A stretch of 19,906 nt of DNA from Thraustochytrium aureum. Its lineage: Eukaryota. The DNA lies in assembly GCA_012862495.1 (NCBI GenBank), contig BLSG01000198.1, positions 113,821-133,726 on the forward strand, in the 5' to 3' direction. A program made the translations under genes and the position numbers. The notes under the pieces are model-generated. The model searched no databases. It saw only the letters and a program-made list of their open reading frames with translations, and was not told the DNA's origin. Shown piece by piece: positions 3 to 19,716 of this stretch; position 1 is the stretch's first letter; the number at the start of each line of letters is the position of its first letter.

Positions 3-1776
3 CGGAAGGAGGACCGCGCGGTAGAGGATGATCAAGTAAAGCAGGACGCCGCTGCCACGGCAGAGGGTAAACGCGGCAAGGCGAAGAAGAAGCGCTCGTC
101 CGAACAGGTCGTCGCGAAGAGTTCTACGAAGAAGGCCAAACGCGAGGTCGCGGAGCCAGCAATTGAGAATGAGCAAGTAGAAGACGAGGCCGAAGAGGCC
201 ACCGAAGAGGCCACGGAGAACGGCCGCAAGGGCGAGAGAAAGGCCAAGGTCGAAGCGCCGCTCGAACACGACGAAGATGGCTCCAAGAAAGGGTTCTTCT
301 CGGACGTAACGTTCGATTCGCTCGAGCTCTCGGACAACACCCGGAAAGCGCTGGCCGAGGCCGGGTTTGAGAAACTGACCCAGATCCAGGCCAAAGCCAT
401 CCCGCCCCTTCTCCAAGGCTGCGACTTGATCGGCGCTGCCAAAACCGGGTCAGGGAAAACCCTGGCGTTCATCGTTCCGGCCGTCGAGCTCCTGGCCCGC
501 GTCCAGTTCAAGGCGCGCAACGGGACCGGTGTTGTGGTGATCAGCCCAACGCGAGAGCTGGCTCTCCAAATCTACGGCGTTGTGCTCGAGGTGTGCAAAT
601 ACCACTCGCAATCGCACGGGATCGTGATTGGGGGCGCCAACCGGCGCGTCGAGGCAGAACGGCTGCAAAAGGGCGTCAACCTCCTGGTGTCCACACCAGG
701 GCGCCTGCTCGACCACCTGCGCAACACCAAGGGGTTCCACTTCAAAAACCTGCAGTGCCTCGTGATTGACGAGGCTGACCGCATCCTGGAGATCGGGTTC
801 GAAGAGGACATGCACCAGATCATCAAGCTTCTCCCGTCGGAGCGCCAGACGCTTCTGTTCTCCGCCACGCAAACGAAAAACGTCGAGGACCTCGTGCGCC
901 TCTCCATCAAAGGGAAGCCAGTATTCGTCAGCGTGCACAGCCAGGAGTCTGAGGCCACCGCGGCAGGGCTCGAGCAGGGCTACGTGGTGTGCCCGAGCGA
1001 GCTCCGTTTTCTGCTCCTGTACACCTTCTTGCGCAAGAACAAGAAGAAGAAGATCATGGTCTTCTTCTCCTCTTGCAATTCGGTCAAGTACCACTCGGAG
1101 CTCCTCAACTTTGTCGACCTCCCAGTCAAGGACATCCACGGTCGCCAAAAGCAGCAGAAGCGTACCACGACGTTCTTCGAGTTTTGCAACGCGACAACGG
1201 GGACGCTTTTGTGCACAGACGTCGCAGCCCGCGGCCTGGACATCCCCAACGTGGACTGGATCATCCAGTTCGACCCGCCTGACGACCCGAAGGAGTACAT
1301 CCACCGCGTGGGTCGCGCTGCGCGCGGGGCCAAGGGGACTGGGCGCTGCGCTCTTGTTTCTGATTCCGTCCGAGCTCAAGTTCCTTCAGTACCTGCGCAA
1401 GGCCAAAGTGACCGTCAACGAGTACGAGTTCCCCACCAAGAAGATCGCCAACGTGCAGACGCAGATGGAGGACCTCGTGCAGAAGAACTACTACCTGAAC
1501 CGCTCTGCGAAGGACGCGTACCGCAGCTACCTGATGGCCTACTCGTCGCACTCGCACAAGGACATCTTTGACATCCACAACCTCGACCTGCAGGCGGCGG
1601 CCAGGGCGTTCGGCTTCTCCGTGCCGCCCTCGGTCAACCTCAACATCAAGACGACAGGTCGCAAAGCCCGCGACCGCGACGCCAAGCACGACCGCCTTTC
1701 CACGGGCCACACCTTCTCCGCGAGCAACCCGTACGGCAAGCGCGACCCCAAGGACAAGCGCCAGTTCTCCCACTAG
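3..1776 (+). CDS. HAS1: ATP-dependent DEAD-box RNA helicase HAS1/DDX18 (5'-partial; one +1 indel at ~1347)
   Basis: The frame is open from position 3 with a charged N-terminus, then Q-motif (GFEKLTQIQ), [42 protein letters not shown] and YIHRVGR. Removing T1347 joins it to [14 protein letters not shown]...[19 protein letters not shown]..., the HAS1-type C-terminus, ending at TAG 1774-1776. The start lies upstream of the window. Confidence 0.95.
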
Positions 1777-1904: not shown

Positions 1905-2605
1905 TTGCCGCCGTCTCGGCCGCTCCCGCTCGCAGGACGCGCCAGTGACGGGCAGGTTGCAGGGCAGTCTGCCGTGCTTGCTGGCTGGCGCGCAGGGCTG
2001 TGCGTGCGCTTGCTGGCGCGCGGCCTGCGCCGTCGTCGGCATTTGACCGGTACATCGGGCCAAATCCGGCAGAGATNNNNNNNNNNNNNNNNNNNNNNNN
2101 NNNNNNNNNNNNNNNNNNNNNNNNNNNNNNNNNNNNNNNNNNNNNNNNNNNNNNNNNNNNNNNNNNNNNNNNNNNNNNNNNNNNNNNNNNNNNNNNNNNN
2201 NNNNNNNNNNNNNNNNNNNNNNNNNNNNNNNNNNNNNNNNNNNNNNNNNNNNNNNNNNNNNNNNNNNNNNNNNNNNNNNNNNNNNNNNNNNNNNNNNNNN
2301 NNNGGCAGGCAGGCAGCAACTCGCAGACGACCTGGCTCGAGCAGGCAAGGCGTTCCAACCAAGTTTCATCTGGGTGTCGATCTGCTGCAGTGCGTTGTTC
2401 GGTGGTGGCCGAGGCTGAGGCCTGGCGAAGGCCGTCGCCGTGAGCTTCGCCGCCAAATCTTCGCTCGTTCCTTCGCGTGTTGGGACGCCGACACCGCCAG
2501 CAATTGCGCTTGCTCGCAGGCGGCGGCGCGAGGCGAGAACGGGGTGGCGACAGCGGCAGAACAAGAACTAGCTCGAGACCGCCCCGCCCCAGAAAGTGAC
2601 GAGAC

Positions 2606-2680
2606 ATGGGACTCGGACGCAACGCCGCCGCACTCTGCACTGCCCTCCTCGCCCTGTGCTGCGCAAGACAGGCACACGCA
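2606..2680 (+). other. Predicted N-terminal signal peptide of the carotenoid polyprotein
   Basis: MGLGRNAAALCTALLALCCARQAHA|EEEAQQ: basic n-region, hydrophobic core, A-H-A cleavage motif, then acidic residues. Confidence 0.65.
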
Positions 2681-5600
2681 GAGGAAGAGGCGCAGCAGAA
2701 GCGCCAGCATGTGGCTGTGATTGGCGCAGGGTACGCCGGCCTGGCGGCGGCCTGCGAGCTGAGCTTGCAGGGGTTCCAAGTTACCGTATACGAGGCGAAC
2801 GACTTTGTCGGTGGGCGAGCCCATACCTACACGACGCCTGAAGGGTTTACCTTTGACGCAGGGCCGAGCTGGTACTGGATGCCCGAGGTATTCGAGCGCT
2901 TCTTCGCGCGATACGGCCGCACGCCCGACGAGTACTACACCCTCTCGCGTCTCGACCCAGCGTACCGAATCGTACTCCCACGAGGCGACGAGCCGGTCGA
3001 CGTGCCAGGGACTTGGGAAGGCTTTCTGGAATGGGCGCACCTCCGCGATCCTGAGCGCGCAGCCGCCCTTGACGTCATGTTTGAGGAGGCCCGCCGCAAG
3101 TACGAGAAGGGCATCTTTGAATGGATCTGGAAGCCGATGCTCAACGTGGCTGAGCTCGCAGATGTCGCTCTCATGCGCGCGGGGATCGAGTACGACATGT
3201 TTGGCGGATTCGAGGCGCACCTGCGCAAGTACGTGCGTGATCCACTGCTTCTCACGCCCTAAAGTGGCCGGTTATTTTCCTCGGCGCTTCTCCGGCGCAA
3301 GCCCCTGCGCTCTACTCGCTCATGACTTTTGCCGGCCACGCGCTTGGCACGTGGTACCCGTCGGGAGGTATGGACAGCCCTGCGCGGGCCATGGGGAAAG
3401 CTCGCTGGGGAACTCGGCGCGAAGTTCAACCTCGGGGCCGCCGTTTCCGCAATCAGGTTTGACGGGGTGGACACCCGACGAGCTACCGCAATTTGCGTTT
3501 CTGAACCAGGTGGCGCAGAGCGCTGCGACGCCGTGGACGGCATCGTGGCGGCTGCGGACTATCATTTCGTTGAACAGACGCTGCTTCCGATCGAGCTGCG
3601 TCGCTATGGGCCCGAGTACTGGGACAGCCAGGTGCTCTCTCCTTCCTGCCTGCTGTTCTACCTCGGATTGAACCGGCCGGTCAGGGGCCTGCGCCACCAT
3701 ACCTTCTTTTTCGACGTGGACCTTGACGAGCACCTTCGCGCCGCCTTCATCGACCACGTCCCTGCAGAGCAACCCACGTTTTACGTTTCTGCGACGAGCA
3801 AAACGGACCGGTCCGTGACGCCGGACGGAGCCGGCGAGGCCCTCTTCATCTTGGTTCCCATCTCCTACAAACTGAACGGGACAGACACCGCGCCCGGTTC
3901 GGCGGGCCGTGCTGGACCTGGTTCTGCGTCGGATGGAGCGCTCTCTTGCTGTTTCGGACTTGCGAAGAGCCATCGTCTACGAGCGGCACTACGGGCCGGG
4001 CGACTTTGAGCGCGACTTTCACGCATTCCGGGGGAACGCCTTTGGGCACGCCAACTTGCTCTCGCAGTCGCTCGTGCTCAAGCCCTCAATGGACTCGCTG
4101 GCCACCAACCTGGTTTTTGCCGGCCAACCTCACCAACCGGGGCCCGGCGTGCCGCCTGCTATCGTGTCGGGAACAGTCGCCGCGCAGCTTCTGCAGAGCA
4201 AAATGGCCGCAGAAGAGCCTAGCTCGTGGTTTACTTGGGGCGCCGCGGCGCGCTTGGCGCTGTTTGCGCACGGCCTCATCGCGCTCTGGATTCTTCTGTC
4301 AGAGCGGCGCAAATCCTATGCGCTGTGCGTCAAGCTCTTGTTCGAGAACGGCCGCACTTACTTTGCGGCTGCCACGCTCATGAACCAACAGCGCTTCCTG
4401 GACACCGCAGCTATGTACGGTTTGTTCCGCATCGCTGACGACTTGGTCGACAATGAAGACTCGCCGATGGAGCGCCACGCCAACCTAGAAAAGTTTATCG
4501 CCTCGTTCTGGGAGTGCTGGAGGCGCGGCGAGGGGGACTATACGCTCCACCCTGCCTTGCCCGCAATCATCGAGACATCTCGCCGGCACGCGTACCCGCG
4601 CGACCTATTCGAGCGTTTCTTCCGGTCCATGCGCATGGACGTCGGCAATAAAACATGCGCGACACTTGGGGATACAATGGACTACATGGAGGGGAGTGCA
4701 GCGGTCATCGGCGAGTTCATGCTCCCCGTCCTTATGCCACGCGCCACAGAGGACGAGATGCAGGCTGCGATGGGCCATGCGCGGGATCTAGGCCTCGCTT
4801 TTCAGCTGACCAACATGATTCGGGACGTCGACGAGGACCTTGACCTCGGTCGCCAGTACGTCCCGACAGAGACCTGCGCGCGACATGGCGTCGACCTGGG
4901 CTTGCGGGACGCCTCCCAGAGCGGGTTTGCGGACCTCATGGAGGAGATGTTTCGCCACGCGGACGCGTTTTACGCCTCTGCAGACATCGGCATCGAGCTT
5001 TTGCCGGCAGACGTTCGGGATGTCATTCGAGTGGCCCGCATCGCCTACCATCGCATCCATGACAAGATCCGGGCGGCCAAGTACGACATTTTCGCCTCGC
5101 GCGCAAGTGTGCCGTTTCGCGAGAAGCTATTCATCCTCCTTGCGACTGTGCCCAAGCTCAAGCTAGCGCGCATACTCGTCGTCGAGGCGTACGCGCGGGT
5201 GCTTCACGCTCTCACCCGCGCCCCCGTGCTGCTTCTTCTCTTTGGCCTTTTGGCAACGTCGTCTCTCGCCGCGCCAAGGGTTTTTGGGGTGTACGTACGC
5301 CCAGTTCCATCTGCTGTTCGTGCTTGGCCCGCTCGCCTCGCTTTTGCTTCTCGCCCGGGTCCAGGTTTTGGATAGAACGCCGCAGCAGGAGGCGCACGCT
5401 CGCCACGCGGCGGCTTGGACAGCACTGCTTTGCCTTGTTGCGACATTGTATACCACGCCATGGGACAATTACCTCGTCGCATCTGGGGTCTGGGGCTACC
5501 CACCGGAGCGAGTTGCGGCCACAATCGGCTACGTCCCGGTTGAGGAGTACGCCTTTTTCACTCTCGAGACCTTGCTTACCGGGGCGCTCTGGCTCACGTG

Positions 5601-6941
5601 TTTTCCAAATGCGCAGACGCTGCACCTTTCGACGCACAAGGTGCCGCCTGCAGCGGCGGCTGTTCGAGCTGTTGGCATCGCTGTTGGTCTGGGCACTTGG
5701 GCGTCTGGCGTCCTGATGGTCTCGGCCGGCGGCAACACGCTGTACTTGGGGTTGATCCTAGTTTGGGCGTTTCCTGTGCTCGTCTTCCAGTGGTGGTTCG
5801 GCTCGGGGGTGCTCATCGTGCATCGGAGCCCGTTGGTAGCCTGCATCGCCGCCTCGGCGGCGTACCTTTGCCTGGCAGACCAATGGGCTATCAGGCACGG
5901 CATCTGGCATATCTCATCCGCTTTCACCTTGCCGCAAGTCGTCTTCCCCGACCTTCCGATCGAGGAAGCCACCTTTTTCTTGGTCACCGCCTGCATGTGC
6001 TCCTTCGGACTCACCTTGGCTATGGTCGTGAGCAAGCACCACGCTTCTCGGTCAGGTAGCCTTGCTGATTCCCTTCGTACGGTTCACCGCTTCGGCCTGG
6101 CCCATGCCGCAAGAGTGGACGCGCCGAGGCCAGCGCCGACCATCACGCGAGTGCGACCGCGTGACCCGATGCGCCAGGCAGTGGCTGCGTCGTGTGCCGT
6201 CCTTGGCTTGGCGACCGCCTCGCTTTCGCTCCTCCTTCCTAGGCATACGATGCGCCAGGCGTGAGAGCCGCTCCGCTCGTCGCCCTGCTCGTCGGCGCTG
6301 TCGTGTTCGTGCTGGAGGGTGCCTCCAGCTCAATCCGGAAGGCGGCGTGGGCCTGTGGAGCGTGCGTATCAGCAGTCGCGCACGCCGTACTTGGCGTTGC
6401 CACGGCACAGCCAGTCACTCTCGTTGTTGTTGCAGTGTTGTGCGGTTTGGACACCTTTGGCGTCGAGCCGGCTGGTCGCTCGCGGTTTGCTCTTGTGGCC
6501 AAGAAGTCCGCGCTCGCTGTGCCACTCGCTCTTCATCCTGGCGCATTGGCTACTTTCATGGGCGGGGTGGCATCACCATGGGTTACATTTGAGGTTCTGC
6601 GGCTGTGCACCGCGACGTTTTGGGTCCATGTCGTGAGCCTCGCACTCCTTGCGTTGGGCCGACTGCTTGGGCGGACAAATCCTGGGCTCGACGCTGTGGA
6701 TTTCTTTCAGATTGCAGCGGCAGACGCGATGGCGTGCCTTTTGCACCCCTCGCTTTCATTCTCTGCTTTCCTGGTATTGTTTCATGTGGTTGAGGGCGCG
6801 TTGGGGAGGGCTCTGGCGCGCCGAGGCGGGTCGCCGCAGGGCGCTGTCGTTCCGGCGAGCAACTCCAGCGCACATCGCAAGTCCTCCCTGGAGCAATTGC
6901 GTATCGCTCTGCTCAAGCCGTCCCTGGACAAGCAGGTTTGA
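2606..6941 (+). CDS. crtIBY: Multifunctional carotenoid biosynthesis fusion: signal peptide-CrtI-CrtB-CrtYc/d plus a probable degenerate Brp/Blh-like C-terminal domain (~1,444 aa after indel correction; ~1,218 aa if it really ends at TGA 6262-6264)
   Basis: ATG at 2606. Overlapping ORFs 2606-3262, ~3259-3398, 3329-4009, 3909-5375, 5242-6264 and 6261-6941 join through single-base indels at ~3255 (-1), ~3397 (+1), ~3895 (+1), ~4128/4138 (+1/-1), ~5279 (+1) and ~6260 (-1). The CrtI-to-CrtB junction is in one uninterrupted frame (3909-5375). The I-B-Y order matches the known thraustochytrid trifunctional CrtIBY. Confidence 0.9.
2708..4200 (+). other. crtI: CrtI phytoene desaturase domain
   Basis: FAD-binding HVAVIGAGYAGLAAA...VYEAN..VGGRA; FTFDAGPSWYWMPEVFERFF; WPVIFLGASP..APALYSLM..GTWYPSGG (alternative frame); GNAFGHAN; NLVFAG[Q/H]LTNPGPGVPPAIVSG after local indel repair. 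Confidence 0.93.
4310..5140 (+). other. crtB: CrtB phytoene synthase domain
   Basis: GRTYFAAA, MYGLFRIADDLVD (first DxxxD), FFRSMRMD, YMEGSAAVIG, LGLAFQLTNMIRDVDEDLDLGRQYVP (second aspartate-rich motif). Confidence 0.95.
5290..6030 (+). other. crtY: CrtYc/d-type (fungal/archaeal/actinobacterial, membrane-integral) lycopene beta-cyclase, two repeats
   Basis: Repeat 1: TYAQFHLLF...TTPWDNYLVASGVWGY...IGYVPVEEYAFF. Repeat 2: YLGLILVWAFPVL...LADQWAIRHGIWHIS...LPIEEATFFLVT. Both carry the P(I/V)EE motif. Confidence 0.92.
6169..6810 (+). other. Degenerate Brp/Blh (beta-carotene 15,15'-dioxygenase)-like multi-TM domain
   Basis: Manual alignment to the remembered Blh consensus: GAVVFVLE ~ GLPHGALD; QPVTLVVVAVLCGLDTFG ~ LPAFSLLIFLLISIIHFG; LAVPLALHPGALATFM ~ LPLLFHPxEVxxLF; HPSLSFSAFLVLFH ~ PPLVTFATYFCFIH. 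No search was run. Confidence 0.6.
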
Positions 6942-7070
6942 GGCTGCGCATGACGCAGGGCCCGAGGGTTCATGTGCCATGTGTGTCAGGTTCGTTTTGG
7001 ACTGTTCTGGTCTTGCAATGCAAGCGACAAGCGCTGCAAGTGCTTGGCTACGCGTGGACGTGCGCGTATG

Positions 7071-7088
7071 AGTAGTAGTACTAGTAGT
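7071..7088 (+). repeat. (AGT)n simple repeat in the AT-richer spacer between the convergent crt and PH genes
   Basis: AGTAGTAGTACTAGTAGT. Confidence 0.45.
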
Positions 7089-7229
7089 TTCCAGTAGCTT
7101 TAACAAGAGTACAGGGCTAGGTAGGTTGACAACTACTGACAAGGATAGATCGCGGCCCCCAGACGCTGTGCCTCGCCTTCAGCAGGCGCGCTGCAATCGG
7201 GGTCTCGTGGCCGGCCTGACGCTGGGCTG

Positions 7230-8769
7230 TCACTCCACCATTTCCGCCCCGCCGGGCGCTTCGGCAGGCACCACATCGGGACCTGACACATGGGAGCCGA
7301 GAATTGCCGGCCGCGTTGCCGTAAGCTGCTCTGCAAGGAGCCGCGCTGAATACGGGCTCAACGAGAGGCACTCGATGGGCACGTTGCCCGTGATCCGTTG
7401 CCAATTGGTCCGCTCAATGACCTTGGCCAAGCCGGACTCCGCCTCCCAGTTTCCAACCATGCCAAGCCCGAACAGCTCCTGCAAGTCACCCCCGCTCGCT
7501 GAGCGCTGAACGTGCCCGATGCGCGGTATGATCATGTTTGCGTTGGCGCCTGGATCGAAAGAGGACGACCTGCTTCGCGGGAGGTCAGCAGACCCGGCGC
7601 TGCTGAACGACTTGAGCCGCGCAAAGCTGCTCGCCGTCACCCTCGAAAAGGAGGCCGCGCCGCTCAAGTGCGGCGGGATGTCGAGCCCCTCGAGCCGCGC
7701 CGCTCGCAGGGCAACATCTGCTTGGAGTCCGAGCGGCCGGGGCGCAGTAGTTGCGTGGGAGCCCCACTCGGCCTCAGGCGCTCCCGTGGGGTGCGCGTCG
7801 CCTGTCTGGCGCCGACCAAACCCCACAAAAGCTGCGGCATGCGGCTCTCCGGCAGCCCCCAGCGCGCCGTACCAAGGCGCGAGGTCCTTACTCTCGCTCC
7901 CGCCGTCTAAGGAGGACGTGCTAGACGACGAGGACGTCATGGAAGAGTACATTCGCAAGGGGCTGTCCCGAGCACCGTCTGCCAAGCCCGGTCGCGACTG
8001 CGAAGCTCTCGACGAGAGGCTCGACGCAGAGCCCGAGTGCTGCAAGTGGCCGAGGAGCCTCGCGCCGGGCGCTTCCGTCGCTGCGGTCTCCGCCACCGGG
8101 ACGAGCGGCTGGGCCTCCTCTAGGTCGGCAGACGAGATGGGCTCCTGAGAATCGGTGACCAGGGACAGCAGGCAGGCTTGCCATTCGCGCAGTGTTGCGT
8201 CCGAGTCCTCGCACGGATAGAGCATGACGACGCGCTTGCGCATCCGAATCTCCAGCACGTGCTGGCGCGGGACCCCCCTAGGGCTCGTGCGAATAGAAAA
8301 GCTGGACAGGCGCGCCTTGGCGAGATCGATCACGCCCTGGCTGTTGCCGTCCATGCTATTCTTGTAGAGAACGAGCTCTTTGCTCGAGAGTATGACGCAG
8401 AAGCGCTTTTTCCATACGGCCAACTTGCCCCCAGAGTGCTTCATCATCCAGCACTTGGCGAGGACCCGCGCCGACTCTGTGCGGCGCTTTTTGTCGACGA
8501 CTTCCTCGGCGTGGCACATCTCCAAGTATGCCATAATGTGCGATGTGCAAACGCGGCGCTGCCCCTCGGTGCGTGCCCCCAGAGTGATGGCGCTTGGAAA
8601 GACAACCTTGCGCCAGAAGGAAGGAAGGAACGCAGATGTGCGCTCATAGGGGAACGCCGGGACCTGTTTGACCTTCTCGCCGGAAATCGTGAACGGGAAG
8701 AACGCCTGCTCGCTCAAACTCTTTGTACTGCTAATGCGGCCACGGCCCTTGCCCAACGGGCTCTGCACG
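7230..8769 (-). CDS. PH-domain protein with a Ser-rich low-complexity region (5' end uncertain: ATG at 8534, or continues into the gap at 8770-9668)
   Basis: VLAKCWMMKHSGGKLAVWKKRFCVILSSKELVLYKN..SQGVIDL...VLEI...LREWQACL fits the PH consensus (K.GWL.K...WKKRYFVL...L.YY...G.I.L...W). The frame is open from the gap edge to TGA at 7230-7232. Confidence 0.8.
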
Positions 8770-10659: not shown

Positions 10660-11630
10660 CTACTCTGCTATCTTTTCCAGGCTGTCAAGCCTCTCGAGTG
10701 CGCCGACCAAGGTCGCCTCGAGCTGATTGCCCGAGAGAGTAAAGCGGCGCAGTGCAGAGCTCTTGCTGGTCAAATTGGCCGGCAAGGAGGCAAGGCGGTT
10801 GTTGGCGAGGAGGAGGTGCCGGAGCTTGGGCAGATCCGCGACGCGCTTCGCGACACCAACCAGGTGGTTGTTCTCTGCGTTGATAACCTCTAGCTTCTCG
10901 CAGCGGCCCAAGCACGCGTGGAGCTTTTCCAGTTGGTTGTCTTGGAGGTAGATTCGTTTCAGCGCTGTCATCCCTCCCATCGACTTTGGCAGCTTGGCCA
11001 GCTGATTGCCTTCCAGATGCAGCACCTCGAGGTTGACGAGGTCCCCAATAGATTTTGGCAAGCTCCGCAATTGGTTGCCGCCGAGGCCTAGCTCACGCAG
11101 CTTGGTGAGCGCCCCGAGCTGCTCCGGCAGCTCCCCGATCAGGTTGGCGTCCAGGTATAGTTCTTCGAGTTCCACAAGAGAGAGAAACGCCATCGGTACG
11201 GCAGCGAGCATGTTGCGATGCAAGGGAAGGCCTTTGAGGTTTTTGAGGCGCGCGAAAGAGGCGGGGAAGCTCGACTCCGTGAGGACGTTGTCTTCCAAGT
11301 AAATCGAATCGAGGTTTTCCAGGTCGCCGAGGGCCTCTGGTAGGCATGACAGCCTGTTACGCCGGAGATAGAGCTCAGTCAGAGCTGAGAGCTGTCCAAT
11401 TTCCTCCGGGAGCGCCTGAAGAGCGTTGTCTTCCAGGTAGAGGCCCTCAAGCTCTTCGACAGGAAGACGGCCGCCGGAACATGGTCCAGGGCTTTATCAG
11501 AGAGGTCAAGCTCCGTCACCTCCTCCTCATCCTCGTCCACATCTAGGTCGAGCTCCTCGATGAGGGCGGCGAGCTCCTCGGCGCGCCCCTGCCGTTTGCC
11601 TTCGCTCGGCACCTTTGCCTCTGTCGGCAT
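10660..11630 (-). CDS. Leucine-rich repeat protein (~323 aa, ~10 LRRs; one -1 indel at ~11461)
   Basis: ATG at 11630 gives MPTEAK...VTELDLSDKALDHVPAAVFL. After a 1-nt shift it continues VEELEGLYLEDNALQALPEEIGQLSALTELYLRRNRLSCLPEALGDLENLDSIYLEDN..., with repeated LxxLxLxxNxLxxLP to TAG at 10660-10662. Confidence 0.9.
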
Positions 11631-15855: not shown

Positions 15856-18175
15856 TCAAGATTTTTCTTCGTCTGCATCAGCCTCGGCCTCATCATCGGC
15901 AGAATCAAGACCGTCTCTAGCAGCGCCATTCACGCGATCGTCGGCCTTGTCCTTGTCCTCTCGTTGGCTTGGCGCTTCGACGGCGTCTGTCTTGTCCTGG
16001 ACGACGTCTTGGCCGCCCTGAGATTCTGCCCCCACAACGTTGCCGTCTTCTGCGCCCTTGTCGTCGTCGCCCTCTTCCTCCTCCGCCTCCTCCTCCTCCT
16101 CCTCATCCTCGTCTTCTTCGTCTTCCGCTTGAGCCTCCCCGCTCTCGCCATCGCGGGGGACCTCGTCGTACGACCAGACACTCACGCCGCTGAGGATATT
16201 GAAGAAGTACTCCTTCTGTTTGGACCTTGAGAACTCGCGTGTCCAGCCGGAAGGCAGCACGCGCTCTGTGGCCTGTGCGCCGGACTCGTCTTCCATCTTG
16301 GATTCGCAAGCCACTTCTCCTGCTTGGGCTGAGTCGCACTTCTCGGCCAACTTGGCTTCAGGAGACTTTTCTTCGACGCTGTCCTGGTCGTTGCCCCCAG
16401 CATCATCCTCCGCTGCCGTCTCCAGGCCAGAGTCCGTTTTAGCCTCGTCGTCGGTTTTGCTTTCGGAGGACTTGCACTCGAGTTGCTCTTCCAGCTTGTC
16501 GTCGGCGGACTTGGCTTCGGATGCAGATTTCGACTCGCTTGCCGACCTGCTGCGCGGCGATGCCTCGCTCTCGCCAGGCGCAGCCTCGTCCTGGTCGCTG
16601 CTTTCCGTTTCTGAAGCCTCTGGGTCCTCTGCATCAATGGCTTCTGCGCTCGGCGTCTGTTCTTGGTCTTCCAGCGCGGACTCGATGCGCGGGGTGATGA
16701 GGTTTTCGATCTCGTTGCTGCTCGCACTTGCCAAGGGCAGTACACTCGCGACAGGCTTGTCTTGGGTCTTGGTCTCTGGCTCCAAGGCCTCTGTCCTCCT
16801 GCCTGAAGCGGGGGCCAGTTTCATGCCCGGTTTGCTCGCCTCGATTCTTGGAATTGCAAGCTCTTCCTCCTTGTCCGTCGCAGCTTCTGCAGCAAGGGGG
16901 TCCGTCCGCTGCGCCTGCAAGTTGTAGCTAGAAGATACAACAGGGGGCGGCTTGACGCCGAGCGCAACCTCGCCGTAAGCGCGTTGGATGTTGTCCCAGC
17001 GCTCCAGGTNNNNNNNNNNNNNNNNNNNNNNNNNNNNNNNNNNNNNNNNNNNNNNNNNNNNNNNNNNNNNNNNNNNNNNNNNNNNNNNNNNNNNNNNNNN
17101 NNNNNNNNNNNNNNNNNNNNNNNNNNNNNNNNNNNNNNNNNNNNNNNNNNNNNNNNNNNNNNNNNNNNNNNNNNNNNNNNNNNNNNNNNNNNNNNNNNNN
17201 NNNNNNNNNNNNNNNNNNNNNNNNNNNNNNNNNNNNNNNNNNNNNNNNNNNNAAGCGCGTTGGATGTTGTCCCAGCGCTCCAGGTCGCGCTGGGCGGTCA
17301 CCGGGCTCTTTGCACGCGGAGCCTTGCGCTTGCCTTTCGCTGCGCGGGCGCCGACGCGCCCTCCCGAGGAAGCCGGCCCGCGTCGGGCCTGCGTCTTGCT
17401 CTGCACCGACTTTTTTGGCTGCGAGATATGATGTGCGCAGCGTCTGCGTGATCCCATGCTCGCCCCCGAGGTGGGTCTCGGAGATCTCAACGCCCTTGCG
17501 GTACGAGTCGAGCGCGCTCTCGAAGCGCTTGAGAAACTCGAGCTCTACTCCAGTGTTGTGGTAGGCGATCGCAAGAACAGCGATGCGGTCCACACCGGCG
17601 GTCCTTTTGTTGCCGCCCTCGCCCCCAGGGCTTAGTGGCCCCGGAAAGAGCTCTTCCTGCAGCAGAATGAGTGCTGACTGCGCGTGCTCGAGCGCCCCAG
17701 AGTGCCGGCCAAGCTGCGAGAGCACGGCGCACAGGTTTAGGTGTGTGTCAGCGCGGTTGTCCACGTCTACCAGGCGCTGCTCTACCTTGAGGGCCTTTTG
17801 CAGGTACTGCAGGGCTGCGTGGAGCTTGCCCTGGCGCCGATAGTAGCAAGCCAAGTTGTTGTACGTAACCGCTCTGCCGCGGTCGTCCCGCTCGGTGAGG
17901 ATCTCGGCCTTTTTCAAGAGCTCAAGCACCATCGGGAAGTCCTCCTGCTGCAGGTACGTCATCGCCAGCAGGTTGCACATCTCGCCGACCGTTTTGCATG
18001 CTTGCCACACCTCATCGCTTGACGGCCCGAAAAAGTGTTGCCGCAGTACAAGCCCGCGCTCCATCGTCTCTAGTGCCTCCAAATAGTTGCCTTGCTGCTG
18101 GAGCCTCGTGCACGTTTCGTCGATCCTGTGCAGCGCGAGCAGCTCGGCATTCCCTTCGTCTCCGCCGGCCTCCAT
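15856..18175 (-). CDS. TPR-repeat (kinesin-light-chain-like TPR) protein with a long acidic tail and a WW domain; one +1 indel in the A-run at 17411-17416; spans a false gap
   Basis: ATG at 18175. TPR helices AVTYNNLACYYRRQGKLHAALQYLQKAL, ADTHLNLCAVLSQLGRHSGALEHAQSAL and AIAYHNTGVELEFLKRFESALDSYRKG. WW domain LPSGWTREFSRSKQKEYFFNILSGVSVW at ~16171-16257. TGA at 15856-15858. Confidence 0.87.
16977..17285. other. Scaffold gap flanked by an exact 33-bp duplication (probable unmerged contig overlap)
   Basis: AAGCGCGTTGGATGTTGTCCCAGCGCTCCAGGT occurs at 16977-17009 and at 17253-17285, directly abutting the Ns. Confidence 0.85.
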
Positions 18176-18797
18176 CCTGCCAAACAAACCGCCCTGGAGC
18201 GCTCCCTGGCACCCAAAATCCCGTCCACCAGACCGATCGCGCGTCTAGNNNNNNNNNNNNNNNNNNNNNNNNNNNNNNNNNNNNNNNNNNNNNNNNNNNN
18301 NNNNNNNNNNNNNNNNNNNNNNNNNNNNNNNNNNNNNNNNNNNNNNNNNNNNNNNNNNNNNNNNNNNNNNNNNNNNNNNNNNNNNNNNNNNNNNNNNNNN
18401 NNNNNNNNNNNNNNNNNNNNNNNNNNNNNNNNNNNNNNNNNNNNNNNNNNNNNNNNNNNNNNNNNNNNNNNNNNNNNNNNNNNNNNNNNNNNNNNNNNNN
18501 NNNNNNNNNNNNNNNNNNNNNNNNNNNNNNNNNNNNNNNNNNNNNNNNNNNNNNNNNNNNNNNNNNNNNNNNNNNNNNNNNNNNNNNNNNNNNNNNNNNN
18601 NNNNNNNNNNNNNNNNNNNNNNNNNNNNNNNNNNNNNNNNNNNNNNNNNNNNNNNNNNNNNNNNNNNNNNNNNNNNNNNNNNNNNNNNNNNNNNNNNNNN
18701 NNNNNNNNNNNNNNNNNNNNNNNNNNNNNNNNNNNNNNNNNNNNNNNNNNNNNNNNNNNNNNNNNNNNNNNNNNNNNNNNNNNNNNNNNNNNNNNNN

Positions 18798-19481
18798 CGT
18801 GAGTGCCGCCGGAAAGGGGTGCTCTGGGGCAAGGCGGTAGTCTACAGAGACGATGACGAAGCCTTCAGCGGCAACACGTTCACAGAACACATGGTGCGTC
18901 ATCGTGCTCGGCGCGTTGAGGCAGAATCCCCCGCCGTGAAAGAACAGAATGGGCCGCATCTGCGCAAAGCTGGGGTTCCGTCGGAGCTCATGAGCCCTTG
19001 AAAGGCTCGGCTGAAACACACGAACGCTCAGATGCGGCGACACGCGGACGTCGCGGCTCACAACTCCAGTTTCCGCGTGGTATCGCGCTGGTTTCTCGAT
19101 GAGCTTGTGCACGGCGTTCCAAACCCAGCGCCGCATCGAGCGCGCGCCGGTCGCGCTTTGCAGCCCGAGGTCGGTCTTCGCAGCGAGCGCTTCTTCCTTG
19201 GCGGCTGTAGCGACGGCGGAGTTGGCGTCGCCGTCGACTTTGGCGAGTAGCATTTCGGCCCGCACGGCGCGTTCGACGGTGTCGATCCGTCTGACACCTA
19301 TCGCCGAGAAGATGGCGTGGCCCGCAAGCTCCATCACGCGGAGCTGCATCGGGTACTGCCAGCTGCGTGCAAAGACGGCCAATCGCTGGAGCCAAAACCA
19401 GATCGCGAGGACGAGCGCCTTGCCCTGCTGTCCCAGCGCGGCGACGCCCTGTGTCAAGCCCCCACTGCGCGACATCCCCAT
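18798..19481 (-). CDS. Alpha/beta hydrolase, HSL/GDXG (Abhydrolase_3) family esterase/lipase; 3' half lies in the gap at 18249-18797
   Basis: LSVRVFQP...PILFFHGGGF...VAAEGFVIVSVDYRLAPEHPFPAAL is the diagnostic HGGG plus YRLAPE motif pair. In-frame ATG at 19481; an alternative start at 19614 (MGIVRSLAIAAVVALAGS, signal-like) would need an indel. Confidence 0.88.
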
Positions 19482-19716
19482 CGCCGCGACAGCGCACTGC
19501 GCTCCGCCCCCTCCGCCAGGTAGGTCCCTCCGCGACTGGGGAAGAGCTGCCGTTCTGCGAGGAGCCCGCAAGAGCGACCACGGCAGCAATGGCGAGGGAT
19601 CGGACTATGCCCATGGCGCGAACGATGCGGCGCGCCAGCTGGACGAGACCCCGGAGGGTCGCGCGACAGGCCCGGCCCCGCGGTTGGCTTTCTCGCCGCG
19701 CGCGGCGCTGCGTATG

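What the first reader, a model, noticed from the sequence alone, without database searches (positions are those of the whole stretch)
2606..6941. Candidate four-domain CrtI-CrtB-CrtY-Blh polyprotein: a GGPP-to-retinal pathway in one eukaryotic gene
Seen: CrtI, CrtB and CrtYc/d are contiguous and followed directly by a 226-codon hydrophobic ORF (6261-6941) that overlaps the preceding stop and has no ATG until 6558, so it is unlikely to be an independent eukaryotic gene. One added base near 6260 fuses it in frame, and the window carries many such indels. Known: trifunctional CrtIBY (GGPP to beta-carotene) occurs in thraustochytrids, and in prokaryotes crtI/crtB/crtY/blh cluster to make retinal for microbial rhodopsins. 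Inference: the extra domain derives from Blh, so a prokaryotic retinal operon appears to have been fused into a single ORF. I cannot confirm novelty; related fusions may already be reported in other heterotrophic protists.
Basis: partly seen in the sequence, partly recalled or inferred. Interest (0 to 1): 0.9.

Follow-up and report, generated by a model that had tools for sequence, protein, structure and literature searches.

The report
Carotene enzyme with decayed retinal domain
One gene of a marine protist (likely a thraustochytrid) joins three carotene-making enzymes to a fourth part that is likely a broken relic of the retinal-making enzyme, so it would make beta-carotene rather than retinal; the intact four-part version is already published from another protist.

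Summary
The fusion is real; the retinal claim and the novelty mostly are not. Contigs of public runs show seven indels against the window, including the missing base behind 6263 (2 of 4 runs; one contig bridges it). With them, 2606-6941 reads as one 1444-aa frame: CrtI, CrtB, CrtYc/d and a 303-aa tail. [quoted passage not shown] The tail has no Pfam or NCBIfam hit. It matches Blh only weakly but in register (hhalign E 0.0035, probability 9%; 0 of 1000 shuffles, 1 of 1000 local shuffles). It keeps one, at most two, of the four predicted iron histidines and lacks the last two helices, so it is most likely a dead Blh relic on a beta-carotene synthase. The host is likely a thraustochytrid, a group reported to lack the fourth domain. 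The modest news: thraustochytrid CrtIBY probably arose by decay of a four-domain retinal gene, and Blh was also switched off in another clade. No enzyme activity or transcript was tested. The scan's notes held no match by sequence.

The parts
2606..6941 (+). One intronless reading frame, 1444 aa after correcting seven assembly indels: crtIBY plus Blh-like relic
   Evidence: 56-57% identity over about 1130-1150 aa to P0001-P0003
2606..2680 (+). Signal-peptide-like hydrophobic N-terminus (predicted from hydropathy only)
   Evidence: a hydrophobic stretch near the N-terminus in 19 of 22 proteins whose N-terminus was located
2711..4226 (+). CrtI phytoene desaturase domain, GxGxxG motif at aa 40; holds five of the indels (3256, 3393, 3896, 4127, 4136)
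4242..4301 (+). Predicted transmembrane helix between CrtI and CrtB
   Evidence: hydropathy; a similar stretch in 24 of 24 proteins whose linker was located
4314..5156 (+). CrtB phytoene synthase domain with both aspartate-rich motifs (aa 611, 740)
   Evidence: PF00494 E 8.5e-52
5274..6030 (+). CrtYc/d lycopene cyclase, two repeats with PWD and PxEE motifs (aa 951, 977, 1117); indel at 5281
   Evidence: TIGR03462 E 1.5e-33
6175..6797 (+). Blh-like relic (about aa 1190-1397): His-188 equivalent kept (H1393, 6783-6785), His-78 equivalent is Thr (aa 1283, 6453-6455), His-21 equivalent most likely aa 1203 (not His)
6262..6264 (+). False TGA: one base is missing behind 6263 in the window
   Evidence: table 4 (X1, X2)
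6798..6941 (+). Polar C-terminal end where Blh has two more helices and His-256; no indel seen here in the contigs laid
3..1776 (+). Neighbour: HAS1/DDX18 RNA helicase (5' open, one frame change near 1380), used to place the host

Best explanation
This is one 1444-aa membrane enzyme gene, the crtIBY of a likely thraustochytrid, predicted to turn GGPP into beta-carotene, and its 303-aa tail is likely a catalytically dead relic of the retinal-forming enzyme Blh. Shown: the single frame, the three enzyme domains with their motifs, and the missing histidines. Inferred: CrtB makes phytoene from GGPP, CrtI desaturates it to lycopene, CrtYc/d closes both rings, as shown genetically for the orthologue in Aurantiochytrium limacinum (Rius 2023). 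Inferred: without its iron site the tail cannot cleave beta-carotene and serves at most as membrane anchor or carotenoid pocket, so the pigment accumulates. Inferred history: the thraustochytrid ancestor received the gene already fused in four parts, and the Blh part decayed, to 303 aa here and to 121-170 aa in P0001-P0003. Predicted topology (hydropathy only): signal peptide, CrtI on the luminal side, one helix, CrtB in the cytosol.
For: Frame. Domains. Orthology: the gene is sister to P0001 + (P0002, P0003 Aurantiochytrium KH105 / Hondaea cluster), SH-aLRT 94, in a five-row clade at 97-99. HAS1 is 89% identical to Mucochytrium and 86% to Hondaea over the best local alignment and falls in their clade (96). 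Hondaea HAS1 and CrtIBY are 14 accession numbers apart and list the same longest-contig length. Blh origin: same position as Blh in 16 of 36 long homologues. hhalign against 14 whole four-domain proteins puts the ORF on T. trahens 1271-1382, inside its Blh domain (1197-1452), 107 columns, 17% identity, E 0.0035. HMM without bias correction 11.8 bits: 0 of 1000 shuffles and 1 of 1000 local shuffles reach it, while the CrtY control scores 0.5; mixed profile 0 of 500 and 0 of 500. Motif blocks fall in order: the best places for His-21, RGG and His-188 and the second best for His-78; chain score 0 of 1000 and 1 of 1000 shuffles. His-78 to His-188 spacing is 110 here, 110 in the reference numbering, 111-130 in 14 fused domains. 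Dead site: His-78, -188 and -256 are present in 21 of 21 full-length bacterial rows and all four in 9 of 14 fused domains; the tail has no HG, HFG or PH dipeptide motif and no Blh end in any downstream frame.
Against: The Blh match is weak: no Pfam or NCBIfam hit at E 10; -2.4 bits with HMMER's bias correction, 410 of 500 shuffles as good; hhalign probability only 9% and 1-4% on trimmed profiles; nothing against bacterial Blh alone (hhalign E 0.39, 67 of 200 shuffles; HMM 5 and 22 of 500). The shuffle tests were chosen after seeing the alignment and share data. No relative of the tail among 1.84 billion representatives except one repeat protein. The short tails of P0001-P0003 do not beat local shuffles (55-160 of 1000), so their Blh origin is not shown. 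The tree does not reject one clade of all Blh-bearing fusions (p-AU 0.295), so it does not by itself show a four-domain ancestor. His-21 to His-78 spacing would be 80, above the 46-72 seen in members; another alignment puts H1259 on His-21. The iron ligands are themselves predicted, not solved. A T>A at 2766 in X1 and X2 would alone make a stop at codon 54; each contig holds one more unlisted difference, possibly in that codon, unresolved.
Confidence: 0.72

Rival explanations
1. The tail is not derived from Blh: it is a lineage-specific hydrophobic extension, and the likeness is that of any helical membrane stretch.
For: No family hit; negative score with bias correction; no match to bacterial Blh alone; other fusions end in unrelated or other tails, such as the hydroxylase-like ends of P0027 and P0028.
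Against: Colinear motif placement and spacing; best hhalign match among 1499 columns falls inside Blh; the equally hydrophobic CrtY control does not score; position right behind CrtY as in 16 of 36 homologues.
Confidence: 0.14
2. One reading: an active four-enzyme protein that takes GGPP to retinal for rhodopsins, perhaps with a changed metal site.
For: Frame intact in all contigs laid; H1393 kept and H1259 could stand for His-21; a model guided by a Blh alignment reaches pLDDT 86-96 over residues 71-170 of the ORF; T. trahens has this architecture.
Against: His-78 and His-256 equivalents absent in any register and two helices missing; the model is driven by the alignment given, single-sequence pLDDT 48; thraustochytrids accumulate carotenoids and hold Rpe65-type oxygenases (Rius 2023).
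Confidence: 0.07
3. The gene is a decaying pseudogene, or the last ORF is separate, and the indels are real.
For: Seven indels in the window; the apparent stop variant at 2766 in two runs; lower GC3 in the tail (0.66 against 0.74-0.77) and weaker codon bias (0.078 against 0.155 for an unrelated gene).
Against: Contigs restore every break; HAS1 shows the same kind of break; substitutions in aa 30-1141 are 19 synonymous, 5 non-synonymous and 1 apparent stop; no ATG before 6558.
Confidence: 0.07

Closest known systems
[quoted passage not shown] 2023, PMC10016063)
   Same: Domain order, length (1458 against 1444 aa), 46% identity over the first three domains, fourth domain in the same place
   Different: Its Blh passes PF15461 (E 9.5e-34) and TIGR03753 and keeps all histidines; the tail here has no family hit, one or two histidines and two helices fewer
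Thraustochytrid CrtIBY (Aurantiochytrium KH105 BBB35234.1 = P0003; A. limacinum; Hondaea; Iwasaka 2018 PMC5924542, Rius 2023)
   Same: Nearest named relatives (57% identity), same clade, same likely product, HAS1 nearby in Hondaea
   Different: Tail of 303 aa with detectable Blh likeness against 121-170 aa without; Rius 2023 states the fourth domain is not found in thraustochytrids
Brp/Blh beta-carotene 15,15'-dioxygenase (PF15461, TIGR03753)
   Same: Order and spacing of helices and motifs from the HFG place to the His-188 place
   Different: Below every family threshold; predicted iron site not kept; C-terminal helices absent
Histidine-less fused Blh domains of P0009, P0011, P0013, P0014, P0016 and L001 (unnamed records)
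   Same: Four-domain fusion whose Blh lost predicted iron ligands
   Different: They keep the whole domain (PF15461 hit) and form a separate clade next to P0015, so the loss is independent

Membership tests
CrtIBY trifunctional beta-carotene synthase | [quoted passage not shown] | tested here: met
CrtIBY trifunctional beta-carotene synthase | Catalytic motifs: GxGxxG, two aspartate-rich motifs, PWD and PxEE (motif roles recalled) | tested here: met
CrtIBY trifunctional beta-carotene synthase | Groups with thraustochytrid CrtIBY | tested here: met
   (quick and FastTree trees, support 93-99; the careful search did not finish)
CrtIBY trifunctional beta-carotene synthase | Makes beta-carotene from GGPP | not testable with these tools
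   inferred from the orthologue's knockout (Rius 2023)
Brp/Blh dioxygenase (PF15461, TIGR03753) | Profile score over the curated cut-off | tested here: not met
   no hit at E 10 for 6243-6938
Brp/Blh dioxygenase (PF15461, TIGR03753) | Four predicted iron histidines (His-21, -78, -188, -256; preprint 10.64898/2026.08.06.743266) | tested here: not met
   His-188 kept; His-78 is Thr; His-256 segment absent; His-21 absent or uncertain
Brp/Blh dioxygenase (PF15461, TIGR03753) | Whole nine-helix bundle | tested here: not met
   the protein ends 51 aa after the His-188 place with a polar stretch; fused members have 64-86 aa to His-256; model confidence under 50 there
Brp/Blh dioxygenase (PF15461, TIGR03753) | Descent from Blh (remote homology) | tested here: inconclusive
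   favoured; not (bacterial profile); about 85% by my judgement
Brp/Blh dioxygenase (PF15461, TIGR03753) | Same fold as Blh | tested here: inconclusive
   no solved Blh structure exists; fold searches gave only generic helical matches
Brp/Blh dioxygenase (PF15461, TIGR03753) | Cleaves beta-carotene to retinal | not testable with these tools
   needs an assay
Quadrifunctional CrtIBY-Blh (T. trahens type) | Fourth domain recognisable as an intact Blh | tested here: not met
   as above; position and length fit, the site does not

The most novel reading that the evidence does not exclude
A single pre-fused GGPP-to-retinal gene spread among unrelated protists and was repeatedly turned into a pigment gene by disabling its last domain. 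This window is the missing link for thraustochytrids: the dead Blh is kept as a beta-carotene-binding pocket that hands the product on, the same switch-off happened independently in the P0009/P0013 clade, and another lineage put a hydroxylase in the fourth slot.
Probability: 0.3. Interest if true: 0.62.

Novelty: new variant of a known kind. Interest (0 to 1): 0.42.

Why it matters
The headline architecture is known, so it is no discovery of a retinal polyprotein. What it adds, if the relic reading holds: the industrially used thraustochytrid beta-carotene synthase would be a truncated retinal gene, not a separate three-part fusion, which favours one fusion passed between eukaryotes over the repeated prokaryote-to-protist transfers proposed by Rius 2023. 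It also warns that four-domain length does not mean retinal output: 5 of 14 whole fused Blh domains examined lack most predicted iron ligands. The nine intact ones are ready candidates for one-gene retinal synthesis.

Tried and rejected
No genome is held for the window, so rhodopsin, rpe65 or a second blh elsewhere could not be sought. No RNA holder is on record; X2, X3 and X6 are only guessed to be RNA, so expression is not shown. Word-based homologue search with 6264-6938: none of 7994 candidates at E 10. phmmer over 1.84 billion proteins: one hit, a repeat protein, rejected. Single-sequence fold pLDDT 48 and its viral fold search gave nothing. The alignment-guided model (pLDDT 75) is circular as evidence of homology; viral search E above 0.3, solved structures best Z 7.8 at rmsd 4.0 over 111 residues, generic helical bundles. 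The protein atlas gave no answer. Viral contigs: 38 pattern matches, none a relative. An intron restoring the Blh end was considered: no downstream frame scores and no joints were seen. The first hhalign control run timed out and was rerun without context pseudocounts. Variant counts in the tail (3 synonymous, 3 non-synonymous) are too few to judge selection.
Full report
Observation. The coordinates are right. The CrtY frame ends at TGA 6262-6264, and a hydrophobic frame runs to 6941 with no ATG before 6558. CrtI, CrtB and CrtYc/d are confirmed by family scans; the last ORF has no hit in Pfam or NCBIfam at E 10. As given, the window changes frame four times before the last ORF.

The missing base. 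Eight public runs were listed; four were laid on 2400-7200 and four on 5900-7300. One search shows seven indels inside the gene, at 3256, 3393, 3896, 4127, 4136, 5281 and behind 6263; six occur in two or three runs, 5281 in X1 alone. The base behind 6263 is in X1, whose contig spans 5888-6565, and in X2, whose contig ends at 6287. X1 may be the source sample; X2 is from another study. With the seven changes, 2606-6941 is one frame of 1444 aa. Contigs of X1 and X3 cover 6264-6941 without another gap, so the short C-terminus is not an assembly error. All runs are contigs and none is on record as RNA: one transcript is not shown. One loose end: a T>A at 2766 in X1 and X2 alone would be a stop at codon 54; both contigs hold one more unlisted difference, and a like pair at codon 857 cancels out, but I could not see it.

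Host and orthology. The neighbouring HAS1 helicase is 89% identical to a Mucochytrium quahogii record, 86% to Hondaea fermentalgiana and 78% to Aplanochytrium and falls among thraustochytrids in a 24-row FastTree tree (support 96). The three-enzyme part is sister to P0001, P0002 and P0003 (Aurantiochytrium KH105, cluster with Hondaea) in three trees (34, 24 and 20 rows of the 37 held, tails removed; the careful search did not finish). The P0002 cluster holds an MMETSP0958 record, which I recall as A. limacinum; its printed taxon id resolves to a fungus, so that label is unverified. In Hondaea the HAS1 and CrtIBY accessions are 14 apart with the same longest-contig length. So this is most likely the thraustochytrid crtIBY locus.

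What is known. Rius et al. [quoted passage not shown] That protein is P0018 here. Of 36 long homologues, 16 carry Pfam BCD. The architecture is therefore known and common.

Is the tail Blh? Weakly, and in register. A profile from 15 fused Blh tails scores it -2.4 bits with bias correction, no better than shuffles (410 of 500), and 11.8 bits without, above 1000 of 1000 shuffles and 999 of 1000 local shuffles, while the hydrophobic CrtY control scores 0.5. A mixed profile of 22 bacterial and 14 fused domains gives 0 of 500 in both controls, the bacterial profile alone 5 and 22 of 500 (5 of 27 bacterial hits were dropped for lacking the trimming motif, which contains His-21). hhalign against 14 whole fusion proteins places the ORF inside the Blh domain, E 0.0035, probability 9%; trimmed profiles give E 0.011, 0.043 and 0.39. 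Motif blocks land in order, and the His-78 to His-188 distance is 110. These tests share data and were chosen after the alignment was seen. With the position behind CrtY I put descent from Blh at about 85%. Structure did not decide: single-sequence model pLDDT 48, alignment-guided model 75 but circular, no informative fold match.

Is it active? A 2026 preprint (10.64898/2026.08.06.743266; two passages seen; supplements closed) takes His-21, -78, -188 and -256 as the predicted iron site. His-78, -188 and -256 are present in 21 of 21 full-length bacterial rows, and all four in 9 of 14 fused domains. The tail keeps H1393 at the His-188 place, has Thr at the His-78 place, has no segment for His-256, and ends in a polar stretch where two helices should be. 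His-21 falls best on aa 1203; an alignment lacking the upstream part puts H1259 there. At most two of four ligands remain, so cleavage to retinal is unlikely. This is inference; nothing was assayed.

Mechanism. Predicted: CrtB joins two GGPP to phytoene, CrtI desaturates it to lycopene, CrtYc/d makes beta-carotene, and the tail does not cut it. Hydropathy suggests a signal peptide and one helix between CrtI and CrtB throughout the family, which would set these domains on opposite sides of a membrane. Substitutions among runs are mostly synonymous in the three enzymes (19 synonymous, 5 not, 1 apparent stop, of the 33 listed sites; 4 rows were not shown) and even in the tail (3 and 3), with lower GC3 there: compatible with relaxed selection, too few to show it.

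History. Tail lengths in the clade are 236 (P0004), 303 (this gene), 170, 125 and 121. If this tail is Blh, the ancestor of the clade had four domains and the named thraustochytrids lost most of the fourth. The short tails do not beat local shuffles, and the tree alone does not reject one clade of Blh-bearing proteins (p-AU 0.295), so the case rests on this tail. A separate clade lost the histidines but kept the domain, and P0027/P0028 end in a hydroxylase-like domain.

Novelty. Searches for crtIBY with blh, for crtIBY alone (17 papers, listings seen), and three further term sets showed no paper on a Blh relic in thraustochytrid CrtIBY; only Rius 2023 and Iwasaka 2018 (PMC5924542, passages) were opened for it, and subscription journals are not covered. 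The scan's notes held nothing by sequence and one unchecked note on a bacterial CrtI-CrtB fusion. Verdict: a real gene, a known kind of fusion, in a new decayed state; interest 0.42.

Noticed in passing
P0027, P0028: Two long fusions end not in Blh but in a domain with paired histidine motifs; the P0027 end matches small bacterial ORFs near crtI in 97 of 160 loci, 2 of 3 tested being PF04116 fatty-acid-hydroxylase family. A beta-carotene hydroxylase (CrtZ, name recalled) in the fourth slot would give a GGPP-to-zeaxanthin protein.
   Followed up: partly
P0009, P0011, P0013, P0014, P0016, L001:21-4436: A clade of four-domain fusions keeps a whole Blh domain but has lost His-21, His-188 and His-256 (P0014 also His-78): a second, independent switch-off (L001 seen in the alignment only).
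   Followed up: partly
P0015, P0017, P0025: Fusions with Pfam BCD carry EukProt labels Gymnodinium smaydae, Namystynia karyoxenos and Amoebophrya sp. AT5.2, wider than the six taxa of Rius 2023; prey or host contamination was not excluded.
   Followed up: no
window 2606-2680 and 4242-4301: Signal-peptide-like start and a helix between CrtI and CrtB are general in the family, suggesting the two soluble domains face opposite sides of a membrane; 'signal peptide' and 'transmembrane' do not occur in the main text of Rius 2023, nor 'transmembrane' in Iwasaka 2018.
   Followed up: partly
window 6168-6179 and 6249-6260: A 12-base direct repeat 81 bases apart, each copy starting a hydrophobic helix with MRQA; perhaps a local duplication inside the relic (seen).
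   Followed up: no
window 2766: T>A in X1 and X2 would make a stop at codon 54 unless the neighbouring base also differs; each contig has one unlisted difference.
   Followed up: partly
window 3-1776 (+): HAS1/DDX18 helicase with a frame change near 1380, likely the same kind of assembly error; HAS1 and crtIBY also seem to share a contig in Hondaea.
   Followed up: partly
window 10660-11493, 16928-18244, 18012-19604 (all -): Ordinary eukaryotic neighbours: leucine-rich repeat, TPR and alpha/beta-hydrolase proteins; five N gaps, at least one (17010-17252) flanked by repeated ends.
   Followed up: no
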